In this document: positions 29,057-47,034 of the stretch, in pieces
How positions within the stretch are numbered: position 1 is the first letter of the stretch
Layout: the number at the start of each line of letters is the position of its first letter
Assembly (NCBI GenBank): GCA_963929865.1
Contig: CAWVKK010000047.1
Span: forward strand, 11,055 to 75,054
Length of the DNA stretch: 64,000 bases
Direction: 5' to 3'
Source: an uncultured Eubacteriales bacterium
Lineage (GTDB): Bacteria > Bacillota > Clostridia > Lachnospirales > Lachnospiraceae
Notes under the pieces: generated by a model
Databases searched by the model: none
The model's input: the letters and a program-made list of their open reading frames with translations, nothing else
Told to the model about the DNA's origin: nothing
Position numbers and translations under genes: made by a program

Positions 29057-29198
29057 GTGTCTTCTCCTGGTCTTTCTGCCGCTTGTGGCTGTGCTTAAAT
29101 CTACTTCGCACATCAAGAAGCGGTGATCGTTCTTCGTTGTTTGCTGCCACTATGGCCGTATGAAACGTTATGGTGTGTTTCATTGTCTCGCTCTGTCC

Positions 29199-29253: not shown

Positions 29254-32200
29254 TTATGTCTTTTTTCTTTTCCGCCATTTCTGCGCGGCGGTGATCACAG
29301 TCAGCGCGCCTCCCAGTATCAGCGCTCCCCCTGTCCATTTTGGGAAACTGTTCCAAAATTGAATCCAGGAGTCTTCGCAGATCAAGACGTTGCGGATCGT
29401 ATAGACCGACTCATTTCCGGCAAGATCTTTCAGTTTCACACAAAAATTCTGTCTCGTATCTTTCTCTTTCACCCATACCTGTGCCTTCTCTTTCCAGCTC
29501 TCCTGATCCCATTTCTTCCACAGTGCCCCGTCTAAAAATACGGCTATTTCTTTTATTCCTATATTGTCTGCCGCATCGATCCAGACGCTGCGCTTTTTCT
29601 CCTTGTATCTGCCGTTTTCTTCTATTCCGGATATGACGGCGGTCGGACTGGAATGATCGATGACAAACATGATTTCTTCTCCGTTTTTTCCATTGTCTGA
29701 ATAATTTCCCGCCTGATCCTTCGACATCAGAGTCAGCTGGTAAACGCCCTCCTGCGCAAAATTTTCTGGCGAGATCTCATAGATGTACTGCTTCCAGCTG
29801 CCTTTTTCTCCCCGAATGCCAACCTGGTAGTCCGTTCCTTTTTTCATCTGCTTTGTCTCCCCGTCTCTGCTGCAGAAAATCTCGTTTTCTTCCAGAGAGT
29901 CTACGTTGGTCTCTAAAATTTTCAGCGTCTTTGCCTCTTTTTGATAGTATCCTTCTAAAAACTGCTTTGTCTCTGTGTCAAATGTATAGACTGAGCCAAA
30001 TCGGTTGACAGAAAAGCAGATTTTTTTTCCTGCCAGATTTCCAGCCAGATCACGGATTCTGATTTGAACTGTGTAGAGGTCATCTTGTTCTTTTTCGTGC
30101 GGGAAATCGCAGACGCTTACTTTTTTTCTTTTGTGCTCATCCGAAATCGTATACGTCAGCTTTTTCTCTCCCCATTTTTCACCCGTACAGGAAATTTCCA
30201 GGCTGTCCAGATCCAGATAAGGATCCTCCAGGTAAATCACGGGTTCCACTTTCCCTTTATTCGCGGAATATTCTTCAATCTCCTCTATCGTAATTTCCGG
30301 AACGGTCTTGTCAATCATAAAATCATCCGGACCGTATTCCCGGCTTCGGTTCCCTGCAAGATCTTCGCACTGCAGATAAAGCAGATAACGCCCTTCTTTT
30401 TCCACGCTTTTGCTGCTTTGATATCCTCCCTCGACACGCTCCCACGTCTCCTTCCACTCTTCCTGCCATGTTTTTCCGTCTTCGCTGGTTCCTGAAAGCT
30501 CTAAAAAGATTCCCTGTGGGTCAAAGTTTTTTTCCTCTATAAAAATGGTAATCTCTCCTCCGCCTCGATAAAAGGAATCTGTTTTTCCTTTTTTGAGTTC
30601 CTTCTTTACCGCAATCTCCGGTTTTGTACAGTCAAGTGTAAACGCTTCCTCCTCTGTCTTTGCCTGATTCCCGGACAAATCTTCTGCAGATACGGTCATG
30701 CGATACGTATCCTCTTTCTCAAATAAGGCGGTACATACCGCCGTCCTTTTTCCGTCTTGTTCTTTGATCTCCCATTCGCTCTGCCTGACAGGCTTGCCCT
30801 GCGCGCTGTCTATCTCAAGCAGTAATGTCTCATCATCCAGATTCTTGTCTGAAACGGTAATCTGTGCCGTGCGCGGTGTCCGGTCAAAGCTTCCTTTTCC
30901 CTCTCCTCTCTCATAGACTATATTGATGACCGGGGCTTGTGAGTCCAGAAGATATCGTCTTATCTGCGCTGTGCGGTATCCGCTGTTTGTCTCCATCTCC
31001 ACTTCTACTGTGATGCTCTCTTCTCCAAAAAGCTCCTGCGTCAGCTCCAGTCTTTTGTTTGCCTCAAAAACCCGTTCTTCTTTTTGTGTGTATGTTTCCG
31101 AACTCCAGACTTTTCCGTTTACCAGGCACTGCAGCCTTTTGATTCCGCTTACCTTGTCCTGCGCATGGATCAGGACAGAGACGTCTCCCGGATAATACCG
31201 GATTCCATCCTTTTCCCGGCTTGCGTCTTTTTCTTGTGTAATTTCCAAAATACTGCTTTTTGCTGCCTGCTGTGTTGTCTGGATCAGCACGGCGTCTAAC
31301 TTTTCTTTTTCCCCGATGACGCCCTCTCCATCGACCGCCTGGACCCAGATTTCTCCCGAAAAGCCCACAGGCACCTCAATCATGCACCTCATCTCGTCGA
31401 TGCCTTTTTCTATCTGCTGCGCCTCTGTCCAGATCTGATTGTCTGCATGTGCAAGCTGAAAGCGGACTGTTTTGACGCCGCTGATGCCGTCGCGCGCTTT
31501 TAAAAAAATATGAATTTTCTGATCGCTGAAATATGGATAATCTCTATACGCATACCGCTCCAGCACAGTCTGATCCTCTTTTTTGTACTGTGTCTCTTCG
31601 CTCAGAAAAACCGGCGCCGTCTGATCGATCGTAAAAGAGACTTGATAGGATTCTCTGCTTTTTTGTTCTCCTTCATTTTTAAATACCGCACTGTTGTCTG
31701 AAAAGTCTTTCATCTGTATGGTTACGGTATAATTCGCCTCATCCTTCAGCGTCCATTGCGTCTCATACCAATTTCCTTTTTCCCACCCCTCTTTTTCTCT
31801 TTGCCGCGCCGTCCACGTCCGGCACGCCTCATTTGCGCGGATCACGCTTTTTTCCTGCGACGTCTGTGTCTCTCCCTTCTTATCGCACGCGTACATCTGA
31901 AAATTCCACTGAGACGGATCAAAGTTTTCCTCCTGAATCCGAATCTTTATGGTGAGCTGTCCTTTGCTGATTTTATTGTCTCTTTGCCACTGCTCTATCG
32001 CAATCGGCTTGCCCTGATCTGTATAGAAAAAAATCTCTACGCTGGGCGGTGTGCGGTCAATCACAAGATTTTTGGAGACGATTCCTTCTTCTGTCTCCTG
32101 AAAATCCCGTATCGTCCCGCCGACGCTCAAGCTGTTTCCTGCCAGATCCCGCGCCGCAATCATCAGCCGGGTACTTCCTTCTTTTGGCTCTGCTTCAAAC

Positions 32201-33984
32201 TCTATGATTTTTTCCTCTTCCCTCCACACCGCTGCGATCGGCTTCCACTCTTCTCCTTCTCTTTTTTCAAACATATTCCATTCTTTTAAGTTTCCTTTTT
32301 CTTCAATAGAGATACATCCCTTGACGCCAGTCTGAAAATACAAATTTCCATTGTTTTCTCCTCTTTTTTCCTGCCATTCTATGCGGAATATTTCAGGCGC
32401 TGTATGGTCTACCGTCACAGATCCTTCCAGCAAAATTCTTTTTTGTTCTGTCTGAGAGGCAATCGGGTTGCCCGATAAGTCTGTCCCCTCTATCTCAAAG
32501 CAGTACGTATCTTCCTGCTGTATTTCTTCTGTCTCAAAGCTGCCGACTGCCTCTGCTGTCTGCTCATTCCAGTCCCATTTTACCGTTATCCTCCGCTCTT
32601 CTTTCGTTTTCTGACCGCTCATAAATAAGCTCATCCGCTCTGGTGCAAACCAGCTTTCTTTTATTTTTATGGTTCCTCTTATTTTTCCCGTGCAGGTGTA
32701 CCAGTTTCCCTCCTCATCATTTCCGTCCGCCTCTATCTCATAGCCCAGCAGGATAGGCGGCGTGCGGTCAATCACAATCTTTTGGACGGCCGTCCTGTCC
32801 ATTTTGTTTCCGGAATGGTCAAACACCGGCCCGATTTCTATGGAATAGATGCCCTCTTTTTCCAGAATAATCCGGTTCTGATACTGATCCTGCGCTGTTT
32901 TCTCCCAGCTTCCGCCTGCAAAGTCCGCTTCTTGCCCGTTGATAAAAATCGGCACATCCTGTTCTCTCCAGTATTTTTCCTGAATTTTTACCGTGATTTC
33001 GGCACGGTCGGAAAAAAAGAGGACGCCCTCTTTTTCCTGTGCCTCGCTAAAGGCAAACGGCAGGCACACCGGCGCATCTTGATCGACTACAATATCAGCC
33101 TGCGCTTCTCCTAAGAGCAGCGTCTCATTTCCCGCATGATCGATCAGGCGGATCCCTGTGACGGCTCCCTCAAATGGGGCGGTATATCGGATCTGATATG
33201 CGTCATACCGTTTCCCTTCAATCTCCACCGGCTCTGCCTTGGCTGCCTCCACCCATACTTCTCCGCTCAGGATATGGATCTGTGCGATTCCAGACATCGA
33301 ATCCCTTGCCATGCACGCAATATTGACTTCTTTTTGAAAATAGAGGGGGGCTGAGCGATATCCCCATTTTTCCCAAACCGCATTTTCTCCTTCCTGATAA
33401 GAGAGAAATACTTCCGGCTCTGGAGGCTTTCGGTCAATTTTTATCTGCCATTCCTGCCTGCACTGGATCTCCTCTCCTGTCACTGCCGCAATCTGCATCC
33501 TGCCTTCCATTTCTTCCGTCTCCAGTACCATCTGATATTCCCAGCAGTTTTCTTCTTCCCTGTATGGTTCCTGGCATTCTTCTTTTCTCTCCGTCTCCCC
33601 TTCTTTCCACCATGCGCAGATTTTGTCCGGCTTTTTCCCTCTTACCCGGACGAAAATCATATAAGCTTCGCTTCCCCGAAACCATTCTCCGCTTGGCGCT
33701 GAGGCGGTAATCTCCATCGTCTGTTCTGCCTCCTGTGCCTTCGCCTGCGCCGCCTGTTCTCCGCTCAGAAATCCTCCCGCCGCCATCAAAGTGATAAGCA
33801 GGATTCCCGCCTTTTTTTTCTTTCTCATTTTCTTTCGCTCATTTTTTAGCGTTCGAACCGTCGTCCACAGCTTTCCTCTTATCAGCAAAAAAACGGCTGC
33901 CAAAAAACATGCGGTAAAAGAAACGCTTCCTATCCTTTTTAACTGCTCGTACCATTGTATGATCTCTTGTGCGGTCTCTCCCAT
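29254..33984 (-). CDS. 1576-aa membrane-anchored protein built from about 10 Ig-like modules; last gene of the T7SS-like operon
   Basis: AAAGGAGAG RBS 7 nt before the ATG at 33984. There are N-terminal hydrophobic segments (VSFTACFLAAVFLLI and AGILLITLMAAGGFL) and a C-terminal TM (GGALILGGALTVITAA followed by KWRKRKKT). The module-boundary motif [IVL]D-x-x-x-P occurs ten times (IDRKPP, VDQDAP, IDRTPP x2, VDHTAP, IDQTAP, LDSQAP, LDCTKP, IDKTVP, IDHSSP). Confidence 0.7.
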   Translation of the reverse strand: MGETAQEIIQWYEQLKRIGSVSFTACFLAAVFLLIRGKLWTTVRTLKNERKKMRKKKKAGILLITLMAAGGFLSGEQAAQAKAQEAEQTMEITASAPSGEWFRGSEAYMIFVRVRGKKPDKICAWWKEGETERKEECQEPYREEENCWEYQMVLETEEMEGRMQIAAVTGEEIQCRQEWQIKIDRKPPEPEVFLSYQEGENAVWEKWGYRSAPLYFQKEVNIACMARDSMSGIAQIHILSGEVWVEAAKAEPVEIEGKRYDAYQIRYTAPFEGAVTGIRLIDHAGNETLLLGEAQADIVVDQDAPVCLPFAFSEAQEKEGVLFFSDRAEITVKIQEKYWREQDVPIFINGQEADFAGGSWEKTAQDQYQNRIILEKEGIYSIEIGPVFDHSGNKMDRTAVQKIVIDRTPPILLGYEIEADGNDEEGNWYTCTGKIRGTIKIKESWFAPERMSLFMSGQKTKEERRITVKWDWNEQTAEAVGSFETEEIQQEDTYCFEIEGTDLSGNPIASQTEQKRILLEGSVTVDHTAPEIFRIEWQEKRGENNGNLYFQTGVKGCISIEEKGNLKEWNMFEKREGEEWKPIAAVWREEEKIIEFEAEPKEGSTRLMIAARDLAGNSLSVGGTIRDFQETEEGIVSKNLVIDRTPPSVEIFFYTDQGKPIAIEQWQRDNKISKGQLTIKIRIQEENFDPSQWNFQMYACDKKGETQTSQEKSVIRANEACRTWTARQREKEGWEKGNWYETQWTLKDEANYTVTIQMKDFSDNSAVFKNEGEQKSRESYQVSFTIDQTAPVFLSEETQYKKEDQTVLERYAYRDYPYFSDQKIHIFLKARDGISGVKTVRFQLAHADNQIWTEAQQIEKGIDEMRCMIEVPVGFSGEIWVQAVDGEGVIGEKEKLDAVLIQTTQQAAKSSILEITQEKDASREKDGIRYYPGDVSVLIHAQDKVSGIKRLQCLVNGKVWSSETYTQKEERVFEANKRLELTQELFGEESITVEVEMETNSGYRTAQIRRYLLDSQAPVINIVYERGEGKGSFDRTPRTAQITVSDKNLDDETLLLEIDSAQGKPVRQSEWEIKEQDGKRTAVCTALFEKEDTYRMTVSAEDLSGNQAKTEEEAFTLDCTKPEIAVKKELKKGKTDSFYRGGGEITIFIEEKNFDPQGIFLELSGTSEDGKTWQEEWKETWERVEGGYQSSKSVEKEGRYLLYLQCEDLAGNRSREYGPDDFMIDKTVPEITIEEIEEYSANKGKVEPVIYLEDPYLDLDSLEISCTGEKWGEKKLTYTISDEHKRKKVSVCDFPHEKEQDDLYTVQIRIRDLAGNLAGKKICFSVNRFGSVYTFDTETKQFLEGYYQKEAKTLKILETNVDSLEENEIFCSRDGETKQMKKGTDYQVGIRGEKGSWKQYIYEISPENFAQEGVYQLTLMSKDQAGNYSDNGKNGEEIMFVIDHSSPTAVISGIEENGRYKEKKRSVWIDAADNIGIKEIAVFLDGALWKKWDQESWKEKAQVWVKEKDTRQNFCVKLKDLAGNESVYTIRNVLICEDSWIQFWNSFPKWTGGALILGGALTVITAAQKWRKRKKT

Positions 33985-34005: not shown

Positions 34006-35685
34006 TTACTCTTTTGTCACATTGTCCGATAGCTTCTGTCTTGCCTGTTCGATTTCTCTCTCTATCATCCGTACCATCTCCTGATTTTCAAAGCCGGCAT
34101 TTTCTTTTGCCGAAAAAAGCGCTTTCTCTGCCTGTTCCAGAACGCCTGTGATTTCTTCTGTCTCGATCCCGTCCCTTTTCATTTCTTCACTGTACTGCAA
34201 AATCTGCATGACCATTTCCTGGCATACCTTCAATTTCATAATTTCATTTTCTCCGTATTTTTTCTGCATTTGATACAGCTCTTCTAAATCTCTGAGATAG
34301 GCGGCATGTGAAATTTTGAAATCCCCTGTCTTCTCTCTTTTTCCCATATCCTTCCAATAACGACTGATTCTCTCGCAAACTGCCGCTCTTGTTTTTTCCG
34401 ACTGTGTCAAAAACTGCGCCTGCCTGGCAATTTCAAACCATTTCAGACTTCTCTCTTTATTTCCTGTCTCTTCATAAAAGAAAAAATAGGCGATTCCTAT
34501 CTCATAAGCCAGTTTTTCATAGCCCGCCTGGTTTGCTTTTATCTTCATCTCATAGGTCTCTTCTTTTCCCTGTGTCTCGTTTAAGATTTCGCGCAAGCTG
34601 ATATCCTCTTCCCTTGAGAAATTGTCATCTTCCAAAAATGCTTCCAAAAGCTTTAAATATCCTTCTTCCTCTGTGGGATTGACCGAAATCGCCTTCTTTA
34701 GCAGCTGTATTTTTCCCTCTCCCTCCTGGTTTGAGGCCATCTGCATACAGAGCTGATAGCTTTCTTTTCTCATCTCCATAATCTGAATTCCGCAAAAGCA
34801 GCGCAGTCCAAGTGAAAGAAAAGACACCGCAAAAAATCCCCCGCACAGGAACAGTTTTCTTTTTTGACTTTTCATTCTTTTGCTGTCAAGTTCTTGATAG
34901 TGTTCCAGGGCAAACCACACTTCTCTGCATGACTGATACCGTTTCCCCGGATCTTTTTGCAGACATTTTTCTATGATTTGTCCCAGCCCGTCTGAAACCT
35001 CCGGGCGTACCGCGCGCACCGGCAAAAATTCTGATCCGTGTCTCTTTTTTGGGGTTTCTCCCGTTATCATATCGTGGAGCGTTGCTCCCAGCCCGTAGAT
35101 ATCCGTTCTCTCATCGCTTTGCCCCGCCCCGAACTGTTCGGGGGCAGCATACCCTTTTGTCCCAAGACATACCGTGTCCTGCGTGTCTTCCTCGCAGAAT
35201 TCTCTTGAAATTCCAAAGTCTATCAGCATCAGATCCCCGTTCGGTCTGAGCATAATATTGGAGGGCTTCATATCGCGGTAGATCACAGCCGGAACTCTGT
35301 TGTGAAGGTAAGACAGCACCTGGCACAGCTGTTTTGCCCATTCGATCACGTATTCTTCTTTCTGCGCTCCCTCCTCCTCCAGCACTTTTCCCAGCGTTCT
35401 TCCCTCAATATAATCCATCACAATAAAAATTGCTTCCTCTTCCTCGATGACATCGCAGATTTTCGGGATCATCGGATGATTGAGGCAGCGCAGCAATTCC
35501 ATCTCCCGCACGATTCCCTGCCTCATCAGCGCAAAGTTATACGGTCTGTCTTTTCGGATCTCTTTTACTGCCCACTGTCTGTTTGCTTTTTCATTCATGG
35601 CAAGGTAGACCGTACTCATGCCGCCGGCGCCAATCTGATTGAGAATCTTATATTTTCCGTCTAATATACTTCCTATGGCAATCAT
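34006..35685 (-). CDS. Transmembrane Hanks-type Ser/Thr protein kinase with a helical (TPR-like) C-terminal domain, in an EssB-equivalent position in the operon
   Basis: GAGGMSTVYLA (Gly loop), WAVKEI (Lys), YRDMKPSN (catalytic loop), IDFGIS (DFG), GYAAPEQ (APE), then the TM segment LFLCGGFFAVSFLSLGL. Best start is ATG 35685 with a GGGAGG RBS; the track ORF extends to 35766. Confidence 0.85.
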   Translation of the reverse strand: MIAIGSILDGKYKILNQIGAGGMSTVYLAMNEKANRQWAVKEIRKDRPYNFALMRQGIVREMELLRCLNHPMIPKICDVIEEEEAIFIVMDYIEGRTLGKVLEEEGAQKEEYVIEWAKQLCQVLSYLHNRVPAVIYRDMKPSNIMLRPNGDLMLIDFGISREFCEEDTQDTVCLGTKGYAAPEQFGAGQSDERTDIYGLGATLHDMITGETPKKRHGSEFLPVRAVRPEVSDGLGQIIEKCLQKDPGKRYQSCREVWFALEHYQELDSKRMKSQKRKLFLCGGFFAVSFLSLGLRCFCGIQIMEMRKESYQLCMQMASNQEGEGKIQLLKKAISVNPTEEEGYLKLLEAFLEDDNFSREEDISLREILNETQGKEETYEMKIKANQAGYEKLAYEIGIAYFFFYEETGNKERSLKWFEIARQAQFLTQSEKTRAAVCERISRYWKDMGKREKTGDFKISHAAYLRDLEELYQMQKKYGENEIMKLKVCQEMVMQILQYSEEMKRDGIETEEITGVLEQAEKALFSAKENAGFENQEMVRMIEREIEQARQKLSDNVTKE

Positions 35686-35781
35686 GTTCTGCCTCCCTGC
35701 CTTGCTTTTGCTTTCTTTTCCAGTCATCCGTCTCCGTCTTTTTCGGAGAGAAAGCCTTTGCCTCATCCGCCGCGTATTGTC

Positions 35782-38647: not shown

Positions 38648-39061
38648 TCAGCTCAGCAATCTTTCCAGCGCCAGGATTTCCTCTTCCAGCCGATCGATTT
38701 TCTCCTCTCTAAAGCGGATCTCTTCCGACAGCTTTGCCTTTTCCTTCTCGATCTCTTTTCCAAACGACTCTACGTCTTCCGCGGCGGTCTCATAGTCTTG
38801 ACCGTACAGCTCTTCTCTTAGGCAGCTGGAAAAGGTCTGCGCAAAGCAGGGAGGATGGGTGCACTCCGCAATCATCCCCGCCCGCGCTCTCCTTGCGGCA
38901 ATCAGCTGCTGAAACTCTTCCTTCTTTTTTTCAAAGCATCCCTGTGCTTCTTCCATATCCCGATACTGCAAAAGGAGCTGTGAATTTTCGTTTTTGAGGC
39001 TGTCTTTTTGCGCTTTCAGCTGCAGAATCCTTTGGCGTACTCCGTCTTTTCCCTCTATCAT
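38648..39061 (-). CDS. 137-aa coiled-coil protein with a central Cys-containing segment; T7SS accessory protein of unknown family
   Basis: Heptad-rich arms (ILQLKAQKDSLKNENSQLLLQY and KLSEEIRFREEKIDRLEEEILALERL) flank ECTHPPCFAQTFSSC. There is a 4-nt overlap with the WXG100 gene. Confidence 0.5.
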   Translation of the reverse strand: MIEGKDGVRQRILQLKAQKDSLKNENSQLLLQYRDMEEAQGCFEKKKEEFQQLIAARRARAGMIAECTHPPCFAQTFSSCLREELYGQDYETAAEDVESFGKEIEKEKAKLSEEIRFREEKIDRLEEEILALERLLS

Positions 39062-39351
39062 CCGATAAACTGCCCCGCAATTTCTAAGTCTGTCTGTTCC
39101 AGTGTATCTGCTGTCCGGATCAGAACCTTTTCGATTTCCCGGATTAGTTCCTCCGCTTTTTTAAATCCAGGCTTAAGCTGCTCGTATCGGACCGCATAGG
39201 AATCGCTTGCCGCTCCCTCCCATTCTTCCTGGAGGCGAAGCAGAAGCTGCTCCATATTTTCAATCACGCTCTGCAGTTCATCCGCCTGTACGCCATATTC
39301 TCTTGCTCTCTCTCTCAATTTTTCCGGTGTGATTCTAATCTGTCCGTTCAT
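39058..39351 (-). CDS. esxA: WXG100-family protein (EsxA-like)
   Basis: A 97-aa protein: MNGQIRITPEKLRERA..., a central W-E-G (LQEEWEGAASDSY), and a helix-turn-helix hairpin layout. It sits immediately downstream of essC. Confidence 0.85.
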   Translation of the reverse strand: MNGQIRITPEKLRERAREYGVQADELQSVIENMEQLLLRLQEEWEGAASDSYAVRYEQLKPGFKKAEELIREIEKVLIRTADTLEQTDLEIAGQFIG

Positions 39352-39355
39352 GTTT

Positions 39356-42300
39356 TTATTCCTTTCTGCTTTTTTGTTCTTCTGTGTTTTCTTCCTGGAC
39401 GGCGGCTATCTTGCATTTTTCCAGATGCGTGCCATCCCAGAAAAAAATTTCTGACGAATCTTTTCGCTCTTTACATTTTTTTAATTCTCCAAACGGTATC
39501 TCAACTGCTTTGATCTGCGTTTTTTCTCCAAAAAACAGAAGCTGTCCCCGTTCTCGGATTTCCTGGAGGAATTCGCAGCTGTGATACCGTATCGCTTTGT
39601 TTTCGAGATTTGCGCAAAGGATCAAAATCTCTTTTCTAAGTTCTCTTAAAAGCTCACGCTGTTCCTTGTCTCTTGAAAGAGCTTCCAACACTTCGCTGCC
39701 GTTTAAGAGCAGCAAAATCTCTTCCTCTCTTTTGCTCTGCGCGCATTCTTTTACATCTTGGAGAAGCGCTTTGCTGTCGGTAAAATAACGCCATTCTCCT
39801 TTTTTGTTCAGAATCTGCAGTCTGCGCTTTTCGTCATCCAAAATAAAGCATTTCATTCTTTCCTGAAAAATCCTGCATGTCTGTGGAATCTGAGAAAGCC
39901 ACTCCATCTGTTCTTCCCCGCATACGCCGGTAATCTTGTTCTTCCACTCTCCAAAAAAGACAGGCTTTAAACGGCGAAATTGAACCGCTGCCGGAACGTC
40001 CCCTTTTTTTCGGCAGATCGGATATATCTCCCATGACAGCCTCTGAGGAATGACAGGAATCTTTCTGGCTTCTTTTTCTGCTCTCCTGCTGCATTTCCAG
40101 ATCCAATCCTCCATCCGGAGCGTCTGTTCTTGTGTCGTTGCCCCCTGAAACGCCTGATACACCTGCATCTGATAGACCTCGTTCTTCCACGGGAAAAAGG
40201 CGCGCCCGGCAATTTTAGGAAGCTTTCCTCTCATCTCATCCATCAGCTGCCGGTATGCCGACGCATCCTGGTGAAACAGAGAAATCCGGCATCCGAACAT
40301 TTCCACAGTCCCTCCGTGAATTCCTCTTAACTCTTCCTGAAATACAACCGTATAGATCTCCCACCTGTTCCCCTCTCTCCAGACCGCACTGATGCGTTCC
40401 TCTAAATCGGGATACCTTTTTTTCCATTCCAGATATGAAAACCACACAAAGATTACCGGAGACCGCCTGATCTTATCTTGCTCTCCCTCCCATGCTGCCT
40501 GCCTCTTTCGAAATTCCATTTCTTCCCTTGCCATCTCGACCAGATTTTCCAGTTTTTCCTCCTCTGACGCGCGGACAATTCCGCCGACCTGCGGAAGCCT
40601 TTCGAGCGCCTGCGGAAGACGTCCTTCAAAATCTGCGACATAGATTTCTATCTCTTGCGCGTATTGTGCAATCCAGCCCCTCAGCAGAACAAAGAAAAGA
40701 TTTTGTTTTCCAAATCCCATGCTCCCTGTGACCAGCAGATTTTTCCCCCGCATTTCAAAGACAGCTTCCGGCTGCCGCTGCATTTTAGGATCATCCAAAA
40801 TTCCAATCGGGATCTGTCCTCTTGGCAGCTCATTCTGTCTCTTGGTTGGATATGGAATGTTTTCTCTTAAAGGCGCAAGGCATACAACCGGCAGTTTTCT
40901 GATATATTTTTTATGCCATTGTTCCACTATCCGCTGCCTGACCGCTTCCGCCTCAGTCCATCCTTCTTGTGCGTACCCTTTTTTTTCGTAGAGCAGCCGC
41001 CTCTCTCCTCCTAACAAAATGCGGAAGATCTGAAATCCCTGCGTCTTCTCCTGCTTTATTTTCTCTGAGCTGTATGCCGACTGAAACAAGAAAAACTGTT
41101 CGTTGTTTCCCACCTGAAAGTATGCCCTTCCAGGTTCCAAAATCTGTGCGGCAAGCCCAGACCGCAGCACTTCTCTGCTGTCATTTTCCGACTGCACTTT
41201 CAGGCAGAGCCGAAATTTCGCGTTGCTCCAGATCTGTTCGCTTACCTGACCGGAAGGTTTCTGTGTTGCCAAAATCAGGTGAACGCCCAGGCTTCGCCCT
41301 ATTCTGGATGCGCTGATCAGCTCTTTCATAAATTCCGGCTGTTCTGCTCTCAGCTCTGCAAATTCATCCACAATCAGAATCAAATGCGGCATTGCCTCTA
41401 ATTGCGCCGGTCTTTTCCGGTACCTCTGTTCATACTCATCCACATGCGCGCATCCGTTTTCCGCTAACATTCTCTGTCTCTTTTTTAGTTCCGCGCGGAT
41501 AAACATCAGAGATCGCTCGAGCAAAGCCTCATCCAGATTCGTGATCGTCCCAGCCAGGTGCGGCAGATCTTTCAGATGGTTGGCAAGACCTCCGCCTTTG
41601 AAATCTATCAGCAGAAACTGCAGCCTCCACGGCGCAAACGACAAAGCGGCGCACAGAAGATAGCTCAAAATCATCTCACTTTTTCCGGATCCTGTCGTTC
41701 CCGCGACAAGACCGTGCGGTCCATGCGCCTTTTCATGCAGGTCCAGAAAAAAAGTGCTTCCATCCTCCGCTGTCCCGAGCGCCACAGGAAGCGTCTCCTG
41801 TTCTTCCTCCCACATCCGTTCCCATCGTTCCTTTCCTTCTTTTTCCAGCAGTTCAAACAGCGTCAATTTTTTCGGAAGCTTCTGTTTTTCTAAAAATGTC
41901 TTCTTTTTCGCGCAGGCAATGGCTGCGCTTGTCTCAAGCAGACTCTCCTTGGTCGGAAGCTCAAAGAAAAACGGGATGCTTTCTTTCGATTCATTTAAAA
42001 ACCATTCTCCTTTTCCCTCTCTTATGCAGATCTTTCCCCGGCAGCCTCTTGGCAGTTTTCTTTCCTCTTCTGTCAGAAAAATCGAGTAGATTCCATACTC
42101 CGCCGCTTTTTCAATCTGTTCCGTAAAATACAGCTGCTCTTTTGTTTCTTCTAAAAAGCATACAACCCAGGAGACGCCTTTTTTCGCCTTCATCTGCCGC
42201 AGAGAAAGTTCTCTCTCTAAGAGTCCTTCAAGGCGTCCTCTGCTTTTGGAATCCCATCCAATTCTTCTCTCGCCCTGTTCTGTCCGGACATGCGGGAGCG

Positions 42301-43678
42301 TGCGAACCCACGCTATTTTTTTTACGGCGCTTTCTTCCCCCAGGATAAAAATTCTGGTCTCTTCTTCACCGTGGCTGCATATCAGCTCCAGCAAAAGCAT
42401 TTCCAGGAAACGGATCCGTTCTCCCTCTTCCCCTACGATGCCAATATTCCCGCATTCCGGAAGCCTAAGCACAACTGGAGCGTTCTGCATTTTGCTCTGC
42501 CTTGCGATCATCTCCTGCGCTTCTCTCCAGAGAGTGTGGGTTTGCGCAAAGTCCTCTCTCTTTTGGAATTCTACGCTCACGTTCGGCGCAATGGTTCCAT
42601 TTCCAAGTCTCAGCCACAGAAAATCCCAGTCTTTTCCTGTCTTTTCAAATAAGTTCCAGGAGCGGATCTTCGCTTCGTGCGCCAGTGTTTTCCAGTCTCT
42701 CTCATACTGTTCTAAAAATCTGCGCTCCCGTTCTGTTGCCTGTACGATTTCCCCTTCTTTTTCTGTGAGATAGGCGCGGTAGCGCTCCCTATACTTTCTT
42801 TGTTTTTTCCGGATATGGAGTTTTCCATACAGCCATGTCACGACCGCGGTCGCCATTCCCATTCCTCCAAGGACAAGGCGGTACCATCCTCCCCCAAATC
42901 CGCCGCGGCTTTGCAGCATCACTGCCGCCGCAAGGATTCCTGCGCTTGAAAGCAGCGATAACAGCAGTCTGCTTTCCTGCTTTTCAGGATAATTCGCCGG
43001 CGCTGCGATCCGGATACATTCCTGTGGAGTTTCTGTTCTCCATCTGGCTCTGCAGACATAATCAGGATAATCAGATCTCTCGCTTTGCGCTTTCTGGACG
43101 TGGATTCCGTGGCATACCATATTTTTTGCAAGGTCAAACCAGATCTTTTCTTCCCGCATATAGAACCGGTATCCGCCCAGCTCCACAAAATCGTGTTCTC
43201 TAAGCTGCGCCTTTGCCTGCACCATCATGCCGTTTTTTGCAATCTCCCATGTGCTGCTCCAAACCCAGAACGCATTCTCTTTCCATCTGATTTCCATCCA
43301 TTTCTGTCTCAGAAAAATATCCTGAATGTGAATGTGGCAAAACGTTTCTCCTCCGATATACAGCGGCTTTTCTCTTTTCAGGCAGACTGCGTACCCATAC
43401 GACGCTTTCTTTTTTTTCTTCCATCTCTGAAGAAAAATGCGGTAAAGGCACAGACCGGAATCTTCCTCGTGCATCTCGATTTCGGCTCCGTGCTCAAATG
43501 GAATCCATCCCTTCTTCATCACGGTATCGCCTGTCAGGTAATAGCCCTCTTCCGTCTCAAGATACCACTGCTCTTGTCTTTTTGCCGCATAAATCCCATA
43601 GGAATTCGATGGCTTTTGCAGCTCCTGCGTTCTTTCCTCGTATCTTCCCCGTGAAAAAATCCATATTTTCCATTCCAC
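39356..43678 (-). CDS. essC: Type VII secretion FtsK/SpoIIIE-family ATPase EssC
   Basis: GTG start. The N-terminal ~200 aa are FHA-like. Two TM helices lie at about aa 237-285. Canonical Walker A VAGTTGSGKSE (41678-41710) and Walker B LILIVDEF. Further P-loop-like domains are degenerate (GSMGFGKQ; GVCGEEQM). Confidence 0.92.
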   Translation of the reverse strand: MEWKIWIFSRGRYEERTQELQKPSNSYGIYAAKRQEQWYLETEEGYYLTGDTVMKKGWIPFEHGAEIEMHEEDSGLCLYRIFLQRWKKKKKASYGYAVCLKREKPLYIGGETFCHIHIQDIFLRQKWMEIRWKENAFWVWSSTWEIAKNGMMVQAKAQLREHDFVELGGYRFYMREEKIWFDLAKNMVCHGIHVQKAQSERSDYPDYVCRARWRTETPQECIRIAAPANYPEKQESRLLLSLLSSAGILAAAVMLQSRGGFGGGWYRLVLGGMGMATAVVTWLYGKLHIRKKQRKYRERYRAYLTEKEGEIVQATERERRFLEQYERDWKTLAHEAKIRSWNLFEKTGKDWDFLWLRLGNGTIAPNVSVEFQKREDFAQTHTLWREAQEMIARQSKMQNAPVVLRLPECGNIGIVGEEGERIRFLEMLLLELICSHGEEETRIFILGEESAVKKIAWVRTLPHVRTEQGERRIGWDSKSRGRLEGLLERELSLRQMKAKKGVSWVVCFLEETKEQLYFTEQIEKAAEYGIYSIFLTEEERKLPRGCRGKICIREGKGEWFLNESKESIPFFFELPTKESLLETSAAIACAKKKTFLEKQKLPKKLTLFELLEKEGKERWERMWEEEQETLPVALGTAEDGSTFFLDLHEKAHGPHGLVAGTTGSGKSEMILSYLLCAALSFAPWRLQFLLIDFKGGGLANHLKDLPHLAGTITNLDEALLERSLMFIRAELKKRQRMLAENGCAHVDEYEQRYRKRPAQLEAMPHLILIVDEFAELRAEQPEFMKELISASRIGRSLGVHLILATQKPSGQVSEQIWSNAKFRLCLKVQSENDSREVLRSGLAAQILEPGRAYFQVGNNEQFFLFQSAYSSEKIKQEKTQGFQIFRILLGGERRLLYEKKGYAQEGWTEAEAVRQRIVEQWHKKYIRKLPVVCLAPLRENIPYPTKRQNELPRGQIPIGILDDPKMQRQPEAVFEMRGKNLLVTGSMGFGKQNLFFVLLRGWIAQYAQEIEIYVADFEGRLPQALERLPQVGGIVRASEEEKLENLVEMAREEMEFRKRQAAWEGEQDKIRRSPVIFVWFSYLEWKKRYPDLEERISAVWREGNRWEIYTVVFQEELRGIHGGTVEMFGCRISLFHQDASAYRQLMDEMRGKLPKIAGRAFFPWKNEVYQMQVYQAFQGATTQEQTLRMEDWIWKCSRRAEKEARKIPVIPQRLSWEIYPICRKKGDVPAAVQFRRLKPVFFGEWKNKITGVCGEEQMEWLSQIPQTCRIFQERMKCFILDDEKRRLQILNKKGEWRYFTDSKALLQDVKECAQSKREEEILLLLNGSEVLEALSRDKEQRELLRELRKEILILCANLENKAIRYHSCEFLQEIRERGQLLFFGEKTQIKAVEIPFGELKKCKERKDSSEIFFWDGTHLEKCKIAAVQEENTEEQKSRKE

Positions 43679-43690
43679 TTCGATATCCCG

Positions 43691-43981
43691 CTACCTCTTC
43701 TTGCCTTCTCTATCCCTTTCTTCTTCGGGGAAGCGGAAAAAAAGCGCGCTCCCGTCTCTTAAACGGGCTTGTTCCAGAGAATCGCTCCCTTTTAAAAGCG
43801 CAGTCGGATTTTCTGCCCTTATATACCACTGTCGGATTTTCCGGCTTTCTATTCCCCAGCCCATTCCTTCATTTAACCCTTCCAATAATTCTTCTGCCGT
43901 AATCGCTGCCGGAAGATCCAGGTCAATCTCTTCTCCGTCTTCCAGGTGCAGCACGGCAAAAATCCGTTTCTCCTCACTCAT
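43691..43981 (-). CDS. esaB: YukD/EsaB-like ubiquitin-fold (beta-grasp) protein
   Basis: A 96-aa protein with IDLDLPAAITAEELLEGL...LEQARLRDGSALFF, the pattern typical of YukD. It sits directly upstream of essC. Confidence 0.7.
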   Translation of the reverse strand: MSEEKRIFAVLHLEDGEEIDLDLPAAITAEELLEGLNEGMGWGIESRKIRQWYIRAENPTALLKGSDSLEQARLRDGSALFFRFPEEERDREGKKR

Positions 43982-44987
43982 CTAACACATCTCCCAAAGT
44001 TTTCCTCCATTCCTGCCATTCCTGCTGCGTGCCTCCATGTCTTTTTAAAAAAATCTGCATATCCCATCCCCAATGCTTTGCCTGCTGCTCCTGTTCGCCG
44101 ATATCGCGGCAGAAATTGTAAAGAAAGCAGAATTTTTCTCTCGGGAATATAGAAATGCTGTTTTTTATGACCGGTATCATCTGTTTCCATTTTTCTCCCG
44201 GTCGGATTACGATCATGATTTTCTCCGCGTCCGCCATCCATCCTGTCAGATTTTTATGGTACGCGTGATCGGTTTCCGCCACAATCCAGTCGTATTTTTC
44301 GGTCTGTTTAATCTCTTTTTCCATCTCGCGGAAAAGTTCGCAAGAAATGTCAAGGCACGGGTATGATCTGGAAAACGGAGGAAGAACGTCGATTTTTCCG
44401 TGCCGGATCCATCCGCTCCACTTTGAAAATTCATGCGGCCGCCGCGACACGAAAAACATTTCCGCCTCCCTCTCCAGAGTTTGCGCAGTGAAGCGGCGAT
44501 AATCCTGCCATGTATCCGCCCCGAGAAAAAAAACCTTTTTCCCGCGCTCTGCCAGATAGTGCGCGCTTTCCCACGCAACGGAGGAAACCCCGCTTCCGCC
44601 GATCGGTGAATATACCAGCATTGTTTTTGTCTTGTACGTTTCCTTTGTTTTTTCTCTCTGAACCCTTTTTAATTCTCTGCAGATTTTTTCCCGTATTTTT
44701 TTCTCGTCCCAGCTTTTTTGCAGTACGGGAATCCGCTCCTCTTCCTGCGTCTCCCCGATCAAAAAAAGATTGCGGTTTTGCGTCTGCCTCCATAGTTCCT
44801 CTCCCCATGGTCTCCACACAAATAACAGCGCTTCCTCTTCCAGCAGATTCGTATATTTCTGAAAATAGGAAAAATCACTGATTAAAATGATCTCCGCCTG
44901 CATTCCCAGTTCCGGCACAACCATCCCTTCTAAAAACTGGAGATATTCTCTGTCAGGATCTGCAAATATGATTTTTTCTTTTTTCAT
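43974..44987 (-). CDS. TadZ/CpaE-like protein: receiver-like N-domain plus a ParA/MinD-fold domain with a degenerate P-loop
   Basis: KIIFADPDREYLQFLEG...EIILISD is receiver-like. MLVYSPIGGSGVSSVA (44577-44612) aligns to the SPKGGVGKTT deviant Walker A but lacks the Lys. DWIVAETDH occupies the Walker B position. Confidence 0.5.
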   Translation of the reverse strand: MKKEKIIFADPDREYLQFLEGMVVPELGMQAEIILISDFSYFQKYTNLLEEEALLFVWRPWGEELWRQTQNRNLFLIGETQEEERIPVLQKSWDEKKIREKICRELKRVQREKTKETYKTKTMLVYSPIGGSGVSSVAWESAHYLAERGKKVFFLGADTWQDYRRFTAQTLEREAEMFFVSRRPHEFSKWSGWIRHGKIDVLPPFSRSYPCLDISCELFREMEKEIKQTEKYDWIVAETDHAYHKNLTGWMADAEKIMIVIRPGEKWKQMIPVIKNSISIFPREKFCFLYNFCRDIGEQEQQAKHWGWDMQIFLKRHGGTQQEWQEWRKTLGDVLDE

Positions 44988-45880
44988 CCCCTCTTCCGGG
45001 CCTCTCTTGGCGCGCTCTCCACCTGCCTTTCCTTTTCTCCGAAACAGCCGTAAAGCATGCAGAATTCACAGTCTGCCGCTAAAATCCGGTCTCCTGGTTT
45101 GATGACGTACCATTGCTTTGGAATCAGTCTTGTCTTATTCAAAAATGTTCCGTTTCTGCTGTCTAAATCCATAATCCACCACTGCCCCGCATTCCGCAGA
45201 ATTTTACAATGTTTTCTGCTCAAAGCCCTGCTGTCCTGAATGAGGCACTGCACGTCCTCTCTCTGTTTTCCGATCACAAAGCCTTTTTCGTTCAGCGTCC
45301 ACTTTTCCCTGCTGACAGAATCGAGTCTTTGAAGCACAAAGATTCCTGTGTCTTTTTGATACTTTTCCTGTAAAATTTCTAATTTTTTTTGAATTTCCTG
45401 TTCAAGAATCTGAACTGAGACTGCCTGATCTTCCTGATAGACAGGCAGATAGATAAGATAAATCTGGTTGTCCGCAACGTCGAGATAAATTTTTTCTTCC
45501 TCCAGCTCCAGCTGTCCGAACTGAAGATAAGACCTGATTTTCAGCTGCTGCACGGTATCGGAAAGCTGTTCCGCAATGTGATTTCTCTGTTTTTGCGTCA
45601 TGGTTTTCTCTGCCTCGCACAGCGTCATCTTTTTTTCCGTACAGTAAATCAGCTTTATTTTGCCGTTGTAGCAAATCTTATGGCACGGAAGAAAGAAACG
45701 GTATCCGCTCTTCTTCATCCGGTCATATCCTGCATGGGAAAAGTGAACCGGTCCGTCCAGCAGATAGGAGCGGACTCTTCTGTCACAATACTCGGAAAGT
45801 CCTTCCACTTTCTCACCTGCTTTCGCTGTTTCTAAAATCATCATAGTGTCTTTTCGCAACTTTGTCAAGTATCTTTTCAC
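44984..45880 (-). CDS. FHA-domain protein with an uncharacterised N-terminal domain; first gene of the T7SS-like operon
   Basis: The C-terminus has FVIGKQREDVQCLIQDSRALSRKHCKILRNAGQWWIMDLDSRNGTFLN...GDRI, the FHA signature (G-R...S-x-x-H...N-G). The start is uncertain: GTG at 45880 or ATG at 45844. Confidence 0.8.
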   Translation of the reverse strand: MKRYLTKLRKDTMMILETAKAGEKVEGLSEYCDRRVRSYLLDGPVHFSHAGYDRMKKSGYRFFLPCHKICYNGKIKLIYCTEKKMTLCEAEKTMTQKQRNHIAEQLSDTVQQLKIRSYLQFGQLELEEEKIYLDVADNQIYLIYLPVYQEDQAVSVQILEQEIQKKLEILQEKYQKDTGIFVLQRLDSVSREKWTLNEKGFVIGKQREDVQCLIQDSRALSRKHCKILRNAGQWWIMDLDSRNGTFLNKTRLIPKQWYVIKPGDRILAADCEFCMLYGCFGEKERQVESAPREARKRG

Positions 45881-46403: not shown

Positions 46404-47030
46404 CTACATCTGATATAAAATGGCGTTGCAGATGCAAGCCGCGATATTGCTTCCCCCTTTTCGTCCTCTTGCCACGATGTAAGGGACGGAGGTTTCCATA
46501 ATCAGCTCTTTTGACTGTACGACATTGACAAAGCCAACCGGCGCTCCGATAATCAGTTCCGGTTTTATGCCGTCTTCTCGGATCAATTCATAGAGGCGCA
46601 CCAGAGCGGTAGGCGCGTTTCCGATTGCGAAGATCAGCGGCTTTTTAAGACGCGCCGCTTTTTCCATGCACACGGTCGCTCTTGTCGTTCCGCGTTTTTT
46701 CGCCTCCTGTGCCACGTCCTCGTCCGACATAAAGCAGTACACCTCTCCTCCGTATCTCGAGAGCACGCGCTTGTTGATGCCGGCTTTTGCCATCTGCGTA
46801 TCGGTCACAATGCACGCCCCTTTTCTGACCGCGTCCATCGCCTTTTGCACGGCATGTTCGGAAAAGCAGAGGCTGTCTGCATACTCAAAATCTGCGCTTG
46901 TGTGGATGCAGCGTTTTATAATCATTTCCTGATCCTTTGCGAACGTGCGCCCTCCCAGTTCCTGTGAAATAATCTCAAAGCTTCTTTTTTCGATTTCTTT
47001 TGGCTCTACTCTTTCTAATTCTACTCTCAT
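46404..47030 (-). CDS. cbiC: Cobalt-precorrin-8 methylmutase
   Basis: EIEKRSFEIISQELG...IKRCIHTSADFEY...FAIGNAPTAL. Start is MRVELE at 47030. Confidence 0.92.
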   Translation of the reverse strand: MRVELERVEPKEIEKRSFEIISQELGGRTFAKDQEMIIKRCIHTSADFEYADSLCFSEHAVQKAMDAVRKGACIVTDTQMAKAGINKRVLSRYGGEVYCFMSDEDVAQEAKKRGTTRATVCMEKAARLKKPLIFAIGNAPTALVRLYELIREDGIKPELIIGAPVGFVNVVQSKELIMETSVPYIVARGRKGGSNIAACICNAILYQM

Positions 47031-47034
47031 TTTT

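What the first reader, a model, noticed from the sequence alone, without database searches (positions are those of the whole stretch)
43974..44987. TadZ/CpaE-like pseudo-ATPase embedded in a T7SS operon
The 337-aa product has a receiver-like N-domain (KIIFADPDREYL...EIILISD) and a ParA/MinD-fold domain. The deviant Walker A is degenerate: VYSPIGGSGVSSVA compared with SPKGGVGKTT, so the signature Lys is lost. In Tad pili, TadZ/CpaE acts as a localisation hub for the secretion ATPase. A nucleotide-independent version sits here between an FHA protein and YukD/EssC. That placement suggests a positioning or assembly scaffold, which I do not know as part of described T7SSs.
Basis: inference. Interest (0 to 1): 0.65.

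Follow-up and report, generated by a model that had tools for sequence, protein, structure and literature searches.

The report
TadZ-like scaffold protein in T7SS operon
This gene encodes a TadZ-like two-domain protein (dead receiver domain plus ParA/MinD-fold domain with a lysine-less P-loop) that is a conserved part of a clostridial type VII secretion operon; such a component (TsfV) was already described by bioinformatics in 2024, so it is a divergent variant of a known but untested part, not a new kind of thing.

Summary
The ORF 43974-44987, on the minus strand, encodes 337 aa with a receiver-like N-domain and a ParA/MinD-fold domain. Its Walker A is GGSGVS, with no lysine. It is translationally coupled to a DUF6382-FHA gene upstream and to YukD/EssC downstream.

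The TadZ reading is supported. The best solved relative by sequence profile (E=1.3e-35) and by fold (E=1.2e-11) is Eubacterium rectale TadZ (3FKQ).

The novelty claim is not supported. Garrett, Higginson & Palmer (2024) described TsfV, a TadZ-like ARD plus P-loop protein in T7SSf. The target is a divergent member of that family (hhalign 99.9%; 195 bits against a TsfV-only HMM, 73 bits against Tad-locus TadZ).

The lysine-less P-loop is not decay. It is invariant in nine proteins from about five species (51-74% identity, dN/dS 0.08-0.21), all with the same synteny. However, 18% of other TsfV proteins also lack the lysine. ErTadZ lacks both lysines and reportedly still hydrolyses ATP. "Nucleotide-independent" is therefore unproven.

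New here: TsxJ (DUF6382-FHA) and TsxV are both parts of clostridial Tad pilus loci, including one in this genome. The pair looks like a shared two-gene module.

Other reports of this scan reached similar links on other DNA.

The parts
43974..44987 (-). Target gene: 337-aa TsfV-type (TadZ-like) protein, here called TsxV
   Evidence: ORF. Member of a ~350-aa family with 899 50%-identity clusters. hhalign against canonical TsfV: 99.9%, E=2e-37. AF2 pLDDT 84.4. Foldseek top hit is 3FKQ TadZ. dN/dS 0.08-0.21.
44712..44987 (-). Atypical receiver domain (ARD), aa 1-92
   Evidence: Strands at 4-9, 31-36, 54-58, 74-78 and 88-90 with intervening helices. Aligns to the ARD of 3FKQ (residues 21 onward) in the family profile. 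D10 and D12 are conserved, but W58/K59 replace the phospho-acceptor Asp.
44637..44705 (-). Long linker helix, aa 95-117, ending in a low-confidence hinge (aa 115-118)
   Evidence: AF2 secondary structure and pLDDT.
43977..44630 (-). ParA/MinD-fold domain, aa 120-337
   Evidence: Foldseek hits to ParA, FlhG, FleN, MinD and Soj at E 1e-8 to 1e-6. Profile hits to MinD 4V03 at 1e-20 and FlhG at 5.6e-14.
44580..44609 (-). Degenerate deviant Walker A, S127-P-I-G-G-S-G-V-S-S136
   Evidence: G130, G131, S132, G133, V134 and S135 are invariant in 9 orthologues. The family consensus is GGxGKT[TS]: Lys at this position in 135 of 173 proteins, and a signature Lys at the residue before GG in only 2 listed P-loops (P0072, P0109).
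44265..44288 (-). Walker B region, W234-I-V-A-E238-T-D-H241, with Glu in place of the Walker B Asp
   Evidence: E238 is invariant in the subclade. The same column is Asp in 154 of 161 other TsfV proteins and 18 of 24 Tad-linked TadZ proteins.
44984..45880 (-). TsxJ: DUF6382 + FHA protein, first gene of the operon, 4-nt overlap with the target
   Evidence: Pfam FHA 6.6e-15 and DUF6382 1.1e-7. The AF2 and Foldseek results confirm the FHA domain. No hydrophobic segment is visible in the sequence.
43691..43981 (-). YukD/EsaB-like ubiquitin-fold protein (TsxB), 8-nt overlap with the target
   Evidence: Pfam YukD 4e-9. Overlap shown.
39356..43678 (-). EssC/TsxC FtsK-like secretion ATPase, 1440 aa
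   Evidence: TIGR03928 T7_EssCb_Firm at 2.3e-219 and Pfam FtsK_SpoIIIE. It is the only EssC found in the genome.
39058..39351 (-). WXG100 protein (TsxA)
   Evidence: Pfam WXG100 1.3e-18.
34006..35766 (-). Hanks-type Ser/Thr kinase (TsxD-like), probable upstream regulator of the FHA protein
   Evidence: Pfam Pkinase 2.2e-51. Conserved in every orthologous locus that reaches that far.
29254..33984 (-). 1576-aa Ig-like repeat protein (TsxI-like), last gene of the island
   Evidence: Pfam Big_13 and Big_3_3. Present in orthologous loci.

Best explanation
The gene encodes a divergent member of the TsfV family. TsfV is the TadZ-like cytoplasmic component of clostridial type VII secretion variants.

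Shown:
- It has a TadZ-type atypical receiver domain and a ParA/MinD-fold domain.
- It is homologous over its full length to T7SS-linked TsfV proteins.
- It is under purifying selection.
- It is translationally coupled to a DUF6382-FHA protein (TsxJ) and to YukD/EssC.
- Both the J and V types are also standard parts of clostridial Tad pilus loci, including the Tad locus of this genome.

Inferred:
- V works like TadZ/CpaE does for the Tad motor. It would be a dimeric cytoplasmic hub that docks at the membrane machine and organises or positions the hexameric secretion ATPase, here EssC.
- It would act together with its partner J, whose FHA domain reads phospho-threonine marks written by the locus kinase.
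- In this subclade the P-loop Lys is Val and the Walker B Asp is Glu. The whole family also lacks the signature Lys that fires hydrolysis across a ParA/MinD dimer. V is therefore most likely a slow or non-hydrolysing scaffold.
- Regulation has probably moved from a nucleotide cycle to the kinase-FHA branch. The locus has a dedicated kinase and no PP2C.
For: Fold and homology:
- 3FKQ TadZ is the best hit by profile (E=1.3e-35, residues 3-310 against 21-338) and by structure (E=1.2e-11).
- hhalign of the subclade against canonical TsfV gives 99.9% and E=2e-37.
- The target scores 195 bits against a TsfV-only HMM and 73 bits against a Tad-TadZ HMM.
- On the tree, Tad-linked proteins form a separate clade with SH-like support 99, and the target lies on the TsfV side.

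Context:
- The subclade shows identical synteny in all loci from about 5 species-level genomes.
- 7 of 7 other TsfV-side proteins checked are T7SS-linked.
- 21 of 21 Tad-clade proteins are next to TadA.
- J lies directly upstream of V in the subclade and in L008, L050, L051 and L052. In L009 a PP2C gene sits between them.

J-V pairing:
- This genome has exactly two DUF6382 proteins and two ARD-MinD proteins: one pair in the T7SS locus and one pair in the Tad locus.
- A DUF6382-FHA protein is present in 16 of 20 Tad loci.

Selection and motifs:
- dN/dS is 0.08-0.21.
- GGSGVS and E238 are invariant in the subclade.
- The Lys state changed at least 21 times across the family tree, so the core function tolerates loss of the lysine.

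Literature:
- TsfV is described as a T7SSf component.
Against: - No experiment exists for any TsfV protein.
- No interaction data or multimer model could be obtained here.
- ErTadZ lacks both lysines yet reportedly has ATPase activity. Loss of the lysines therefore does not prove loss of nucleotide binding.
- The P-loop glycines, S135, the switch-I-like GADTWQD motif and N291 are invariant. This fits a pocket that still binds a ligand.
- The subclade lacks the conserved hydrophobic C-terminal tail of canonical TsfV. Its mode of docking may therefore differ.
- Placement of the subclade inside TsfV rests on a long branch. Its join to the L033 protein has support of only 24.
Confidence: 0.6

Rival explanations
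1. It is still a nucleotide-binding switch. As in E. rectale TadZ, a residue outside the P-loop substitutes for the missing lysines. ATP binding or slow hydrolysis would then control dimerisation and engagement with EssC, and the protein would not be nucleotide-independent.
For: - ErTadZ (GGVGTS) lost both lysines but keeps intrinsic ATPase activity through a lysine from an adjacent helix.
- In the subclade the GG-x-G glycines, S135, GADTWQD, D240 and N291 are invariant.
- An invariant subclade-specific G264-E-K266-W motif replaces the family's Q-D-x-x-S at the start of the helix after strand 256-261. This is a possible compensating lysine. That is my speculation, and no distances were measured.
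Against: - Val at the Lys position combined with Walker B Asp-to-Glu is a double change. Among 161 other TsfV proteins, Glu occupies the Walker B position in only 6.
Confidence: 0.3
2. It is mainly a regulator of EssC activity or of operon expression, not a positioning or assembly hub. The analogues would be FleN/FlhG acting on FleQ, or EspI throttling ESX-1 secretion.
For: - FleN and FlhG are among the best structural matches.
- EspI is a peripheral P-loop NTPase that down-regulates ESX-1 when ATP is low.
- A divergent XRE regulator lies next to the operon.
Against: - The closest relatives by far are TadZ proteins. The full-length match includes the ARD, which FleN, FlhG and EspI lack.
- There is no DNA-binding partner domain.
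- The tight translational coupling to structural genes suggests a stoichiometric machine part.
Confidence: 0.15
3. It is a decaying or functionless remnant of a TsfV gene, or a spare TadZ that really serves the Tad pilus encoded elsewhere in the genome.
For: - No Pfam model reaches threshold.
- Catalytic residues are lost.
- The genome does carry a Tad locus.
Against: - The ORF is intact in every orthologue, with dN/dS of 0.08-0.21.
- About 30% of columns are invariant across nine proteins at 51-74% identity, including the altered motifs.
- It is always embedded in the T7SS operon with start/stop overlaps.
- The Tad locus has its own TadZ-like gene next to tadA.
Confidence: 0.03

Closest known systems
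TsfV of the T7SSf variant (Garrett, Higginson & Palmer 2024, Microlife 5:uqae013, PMC11217815)
   Same: [quoted passage not shown]
- Position: between the DUF6382-FHA protein (TsxJ) and YukD/EssC/WXG100.
- Sequence: homologous over the full length.
- A metagenomic locus (L009) with exactly the published T7SSf order J-F-V-B-C-A carries a family member.
   Different: - Only 18-25% identical to canonical members.
- Walker A Lys is Val and Walker B Asp is Glu.
- It lacks the conserved hydrophobic C-terminal tail G[IL][QK][KR][LI]A[YF][LM]...
- No Pfam hit reaches threshold.
- The locus has no PP2C (TsfF). It has a Hanks kinase and an Ig-repeat giant, as in T7SSe/j, and its J protein has no visible TM segment.
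Eubacterium rectale TadZ, PDB 3FKQ (Xu et al. 2012), and clostridial Tad-locus TadZ
   Same: - Best solved relative by sequence profile and by fold, over both domains.
- It also lacks both Walker A lysines (GGVGTS).
- Clostridial Tad loci also carry a DUF6382-FHA partner.
   Different: - Tad-linked TadZ proteins form a separate clade and always sit next to tadA.
- The target scores only 73 bits against their HMM.
- The target sits next to EssC, and no Tad gene lies in the island.
Proteobacterial TadZ/CpaE
   Same: A ParA/MinD-like protein with an ARD that is implicated in polar placement and assembly of a secretion-type ATPase machine.
   Different: - Its Walker A consensus K/RGGxGxS/T keeps the signature Lys. 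The target and all but a handful of TsfV proteins lack it.
- The machine it serves is different.
MinD / FlhG / FleN / ParA-Soj deviant Walker A ATPases
   Same: The fold of aa 120-337 and the GG-x-G-x-[ST] P-loop backbone.
   Different: - No signature Lys, no P-loop Lys and a Glu at Walker B.
- An extra N-terminal ARD.
- No demonstrated membrane-targeting helix.
EspI (Rv3876) of mycobacterial ESX-1
   Same: A peripheral, non-membrane P-loop NTPase encoded in a T7SS locus that modulates secretion.
   Different: - Unrelated architecture: a long disordered region and no ARD.
- It depends on its Walker A Lys425 for ATP binding.
- Homology to the target was not tested here.

Membership tests
TsfV (T7SSf component, Garrett et al. 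2024) | [quoted passage not shown] | tested here: met
   The family profile aligns from residue 3 to residue 21 of 3FKQ. The AF2 model has a (beta-alpha)5 N-domain. The Foldseek alignment to 3FKQ spans 375 columns. Pfam PF21194 itself is not hit by the target, and only at E~0.1 by canonical members.
TsfV (T7SSf component, Garrett et al. 2024) | C-terminal P-loop NTPase domain | tested here: inconclusive
   The fold is present, but the P-loop lacks Lys (GGSGVS) and Walker B is Glu. 29 of 164 other family members also lack the Lys.
TsfV (T7SSf component, Garrett et al. 2024) | Gene flanked by T7SS genes (TsxJ upstream; TsxB/TsxC/TsxA downstream) | tested here: met
   for this window. The same order is found in orthologues.
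TsfV (T7SSf component, Garrett et al. 2024) | Sequence homology to proteins in T7SSf-type loci | tested here: met
   hhalign 99.9%, E=2e-37. 195 bits against a TsfV-only HMM. The reference proteins were taken from loci that match the published gene order, not from the paper's accessions, which could not be fetched.
T7SSf locus type | PPM/PP2C phosphatase TsfF present, no associated kinase, TsfJ with two TM helices | tested here: not met
   No PP2C lies in the island; two PP2C genes lie elsewhere in the genome. A Hanks kinase and an Ig-repeat protein are present. J shows no hydrophobic segment. The locus is a mosaic of T7SSf-like and T7SSe/j-like parts.
TadZ/CpaE (Tad pilus) | Encoded in a tad locus next to tadA/cpaF | tested here: not met
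   No T2SSE or T2SSF gene lies in the island. The genome's Tad locus on another contig has its own TadZ-like gene.
TadZ/CpaE (Tad pilus) | ARD + atypical ParA/MinD ATPase architecture | tested here: met
TadZ/CpaE (Tad pilus) | Groups with Tad-linked TadZ in phylogeny | tested here: not met
   The Tad-linked clade of 24 proteins is separated with SH-like support 99, and the target lies on the other side. This is a FastTree result and the target sits on a long branch.
ParA/MinD deviant Walker A ATPases | Deviant Walker A KGGxGK[ST] with signature and P-loop lysines | tested here: not met
   I129 and V134 occupy the two lysine positions. This state is invariant in orthologues.
ParA/MinD deviant Walker A ATPases | Walker B aspartate after the hydrophobic strand | tested here: not met
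   E238 is invariant in the subclade. The rest of the family has Asp at this column in 154 of 161 proteins.
ParA/MinD deviant Walker A ATPases | ATP-dependent dimerisation and hydrolysis | not testable with these tools
   Needs biochemistry.
Response-regulator receiver domains | Phospho-acceptor Asp at the end of beta3 | tested here: not met
   W58/K59 in the subclade; S-E in TsfV and in Tad TadZ.

The most novel reading that the evidence does not exclude
TsxJ (DUF6382-FHA) and TsxV (TadZ-like) form a portable two-protein, phospho-threonine-responsive assembly or positioning module. Clostridia would plug this module into two unrelated hexameric-ATPase machines: the Tad pilus (TadA) and the type VII secretion system (EssC). 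In this Lachnospiraceae subclade V has become a nucleotide-independent scaffold, and control has passed entirely to a dedicated Hanks kinase acting through J.
Probability: 0.3. Interest if true: 0.6.

Novelty: new variant of a known kind. Interest (0 to 1): 0.4.

Why it matters
Nothing is known experimentally about how the non-canonical clostridial T7SS variants are assembled or switched on. TsfV has only been named from gene neighbourhoods.

This analysis adds four points:
- TsfV is a large family, with 899 clusters at 50% identity in the library searched. It is sister to clostridial Tad-locus TadZ.
- Its usual partner, the DUF6382-FHA protein, is also a Tad-locus protein. The two probably work as a pair on different secretion ATPases.
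- The P-loop lysine has been lost many times, and it is fixed as Val in this subclade. This gives a natural set of "dead" and "live" variants for testing whether a nucleotide cycle matters.
- This locus mixes T7SSf-type and T7SSe/j-type parts.

These points make concrete experiments possible, but they do not overturn current views.

Tried and rejected
- Single-sequence Pfam, NCBIfam and PDB searches gave only sub-threshold ParA, NifH and 3FKQ hits. Profiles were needed.
Only the narrow A1 scan ran. Named T7SSf genomes such as C. acetobutylicum could therefore not be fetched. TsfV membership rests on loci that match the published gene order.
- Xu et al. 2012 (PMID 22211578, PMC3272108) is not held. 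Its findings are cited second-hand from PMC10482377.
- Folding TsxJ (pLDDT 72.6) and searching PDB returned only FHA-domain matches. The fold of DUF6382 stays unassigned here. Garrett's supplement lists kinase-like Foldseek hits for TsfJ; I did not reproduce this.
- I considered T120, just before strand 1 of the ATPase-like domain, as a phospho-site for the FHA partner. It is Thr in 9 of 9 subclade, 117 of 161 TsfV and 13 of 24 Tad proteins. It is not invariant and is probably partly buried, so I leave it as speculation.
- I considered a MinD-like membrane-targeting helix. Canonical TsfV has a conserved hydrophobic C-terminal tail, but the target does not.
- The decay/pseudogene reading is rejected on dN/dS and synteny.
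Full report
**Observation**

The ORF at 43974-44987 is real but lies on the minus strand (ATG start, 337 aa). The plus strand of these coordinates is full of stops. Its ATG overlaps the stop of the upstream gene by 4 nt (GGATGA). Its own stop overlaps the start of the YukD-like gene by 8 nt (ATGAGTGA). The three genes are therefore translationally coupled.

The operon runs on the minus strand in this order:
- DUF6382+FHA protein (45880-44984)
- the target
- YukD (43981-43691)
- EssC (43678-39356; TIGR03928, E=2.3e-219)
- WXG100 (39351-39058)
- three small helical ORFs
- a putative lipoprotein
- an Mbeg1-like lipase
- a Hanks Ser/Thr kinase (35766-34006)
- a 1576-aa Ig-repeat protein (33984-29254)

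The island sits between hemC and cbiC of a cobalamin/haem cluster. A divergent XRE regulator lies at its head.

**What the protein is**

On its own the sequence gives only sub-threshold hits. These are NifH and ParA at E 0.02-0.05 over aa 121-171, and PDB 3FKQ at E=0.02.

A profile of nine orthologues was searched against 1.84 billion representatives. It found 899 clusters at E<=1e-3 and 399 at E<=1e-10. Nearly all are ~350-aa proteins matched from residue 1 to about residue 300. Members of this family carry precomputed Pfam CbiA and AAA_31 (ParA/MinD-type) domains.

The family profile was then searched against PDB. It hits E. rectale TadZ (3FKQ) at E=1.3e-35 across both domains (profile 3-310, chain 21-338). 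MinD (1e-20), FlhG, Soj and FleN match the second domain only.

An AF2 model of the target (29-sequence alignment, pLDDT 84.4, pTM 0.65) shows three parts:
- a (beta-alpha)5 N-domain (aa 1-92)
- a long linker helix (aa 95-117)
- a Rossmann-like domain (aa 120-337)

Foldseek against PDB ranks 3FKQ first (E=1.2e-11, 375 aligned columns). ParA, FlhG, FleN, MinD and Soj follow.

The N-domain keeps D10 and D12. It has W58/K59 where a receiver's phospho-acceptor Asp would be. It is therefore an atypical receiver domain, as in TadZ.

**Already described**

Garrett, Higginson & Palmer (2024, PMC11217815) defined T7SS variants c to j. [quoted passage not shown] Their supplement lists TadZ as its Foldseek match and ParA-family BLAST hits. 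T7SSf also has TsfJ (DUF6382+FHA), TsfF (PP2C), TsfB, TsfC and TsfA.

I checked the gene context of the ~350-aa family found here. Seven proteins on the non-Tad side of the tree were examined (P0166, P0169, P0171, P0163, P0160, P0084 and the L033 protein). All seven sit next to YukD/EssC/WXG100. Most have a DUF6382(-FHA) gene directly upstream. L009 reproduces the published J-F-V-B-C-A order.

The target subclade aligns to these proteins with hhalign probability 99.9% and E=2e-37. Against an HMM built without the subclade it scores 195 bits. Against an HMM of Tad-linked TadZ proteins it scores 73 bits.

So the target is a TsfV-type protein. The claim that such a component is unknown in described T7SSs is out of date. 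No paper in the library reports any experiment on TsfV or DUF6382.

**The degenerate P-loop**

Nine proteins of the subclade (51-74% identical to the target) come from about five species-level MAGs. NCBI labels them Lachnospiraceae, "Robinsoniella sp.", Clostridiales and Eubacteriales. All have G130-G-S-G-V-S135, and all have E238 at the Walker B position.

Every locus has the same gene order, down to the insertion site between cbiC and hemC. Pairwise dN/dS is 0.08-0.21; for example, L022 against L023 gives dN 0.077 and dS 0.51. This is a fixed, selected state and not a decayed allele.

Three observations weaken the label "pseudo-ATPase, nucleotide-independent":
- The signature Lys is almost never present in the family. 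The position before GG is mostly I, S, V or A, and only 2 listed P-loops read KGG.
- The P-loop Lys is absent in 29 of 164 other members (T, V, C, Q, N, S or A). The tree requires at least 21 changes of this state. Lys-less members such as P0163 and P0169 still sit in T7SS operons.
- ErTadZ itself reads GGVGTS. It is reported to keep intrinsic ATPase activity despite losing both lysines, with a lysine from an adjacent helix compensating (citing Xu et al. 2012, which I could not read directly).

In the target the glycines, S135, the GADTWQD switch-I-like motif, D240 and N291 are all invariant. This fits a pocket that still binds something.

The combination of Val at the Lys position and Glu at Walker B is unusual. 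Only 6 of 161 other TsfV proteins have Glu there. I therefore favour a slow or non-hydrolysing scaffold, but ligand binding remains open.

**New point: J and V are both Tad-locus parts**

The window's genome is a MAG of 2.44 Mb, 83% complete. It has one EssC, exactly two ARD-MinD proteins and exactly two DUF6382 proteins. One V/J pair is in the T7SS operon.

The other pair is in a Tad locus on another contig (L020). That locus carries a TadZ-like gene, TadA (T2SSE), TadB/C, DUF5702 and a DUF6382+FHA protein at the distal end.

I then sampled 150 Clostridia genomes evenly and fetched 20 of the 21 full-length two-domain matches outside the window's own genome:
- 19 lie directly upstream of tadA, and one (L033) lies in a T7SS locus.
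- 15 of the 19 Tad loci, plus the genome's own, have a DUF6382+FHA gene a few kb downstream. Three of the four exceptions are cut by contig ends.

On a FastTree phylogeny of 194 sequences the Tad-linked proteins form one clade (SH-like support 99). The clade also captured P0174-P0177, and P0177 was then confirmed to sit in a Tad locus.

Thus TsfV is the T7SS-associated sister of clostridial TadZ. Its partner TsxJ has a Tad counterpart too. The simplest reading is a two-gene module used with two different hexameric secretion ATPases.

Other follow-up reports of this scan reached related conclusions on other DNA. I saw them only after my own analysis.

**Mechanism**

Shown: the fold, family, context, coupling, selection and J-V pairing.

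- V is a cytoplasmic hub that organises or positions EssC at the membrane.
- J's FHA domain couples this hub to threonine phosphorylation by the locus kinase. The SxxH and NG motifs are present, and GK replaces GR.

This locus has a kinase and no PP2C in the island. Published T7SSf has a PP2C and no kinase. It also has the Ig-repeat protein typical of T7SSd/e/j. It is therefore a mosaic that matches none of the named types.

Canonical TsfV ends in a conserved hydrophobic tail, G[IL][QK][KR][LI]A[YF][LM][LFI][LIM]-COOH, in 144 of 161 sequences. Tad-linked TadZ lacks it. The target subclade replaces it with EW..WRK.LGE.L.E. Whether this tail is a membrane anchor or a docking peptide is unknown.

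**Limits**
- No multimer modelling and no access to model coordinates.
- Trees are FastTree-level, with long branches.
- TsfV reference sequences were identified by matching the published gene order, not by accession.

**Verdict**

The protein is a divergent, lysine-less variant of the published but uncharacterised TsfV component. The added finding is that TsxJ and TsxV form a module shared with Tad pili. Interest is moderate.

Noticed in passing
L020:8602-9927 (G000 contig C79), same genome: The genome's Tad-locus TadZ-like protein has a different odd P-loop, YSPVRRCGKTG: the two glycines are replaced by Arg-Arg and the Lys is kept. The annotated ORF has a ~110-aa N-terminal extension that is probably not translated.
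   Followed up: partly
L020:16781-18097; L030-L049 (Tad loci of sampled Clostridia genomes): A DUF6382+FHA protein (400-520 aa) sits at the distal end of clostridial Tad pilus loci in 16 of 20 loci examined. Pfam confirmed it in 7 of them. In the papers searched, the only mentions of DUF6382 are in T7SS loci.
   Followed up: yes
L032:10490-14648 (G011:C46): One Tad locus has a 706-aa Ser/Thr kinase, a 222-aa FHA protein and a PP2C/Big_2 protein directly upstream of its TadZ. This is a full phospho-switch set attached to a pilus locus.
   Followed up: partly
L033 (G097:C19, same family as the window's genome) and L050:142-1797: These T7SS loci carry a Trypsin_2+FHA fusion protein. In L033 the TsfV-like gene lies downstream of EssC, after a plain FHA protein, so the gene order differs from the usual one.
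   Followed up: no
L051 (context of P0160): This T7SS locus combines a TPR-tailed Hanks kinase (like TsjD), two small FHA proteins, J, V, B, C, A and an RHS toxin. It shows that V also co-occurs with kinases outside the target subclade.
   Followed up: no
C-termini of 161 TsfV-family proteins (P0011-P0173): A conserved hydrophobic C-terminal tail, G[IL][QK][KR][LI]A[YF][LM][LFI][LIM]-COOH, is present in 144 of 161 proteins. It is absent from Tad-linked TadZ and from the target subclade. It is a candidate membrane-targeting or docking peptide.
   Followed up: partly
window 28160-29116 and 46404-47048: The whole 16.6-kb T7SS island sits between hemC and cbiC of a cobalamin/haem biosynthesis cluster. 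On the cbiC side, the only side covered by the fetched loci, this flank is the same in every orthologous locus that reaches beyond the island (about five species).
   Followed up: partly
All orthologues are in frame.
   Followed up: no
window 39356-43678: No Pfam FHA domain is detected in the first ~200 aa of this EssC. EssC proteins of canonical TsfV loci show faint or weak FHA hits.
   Followed up: no
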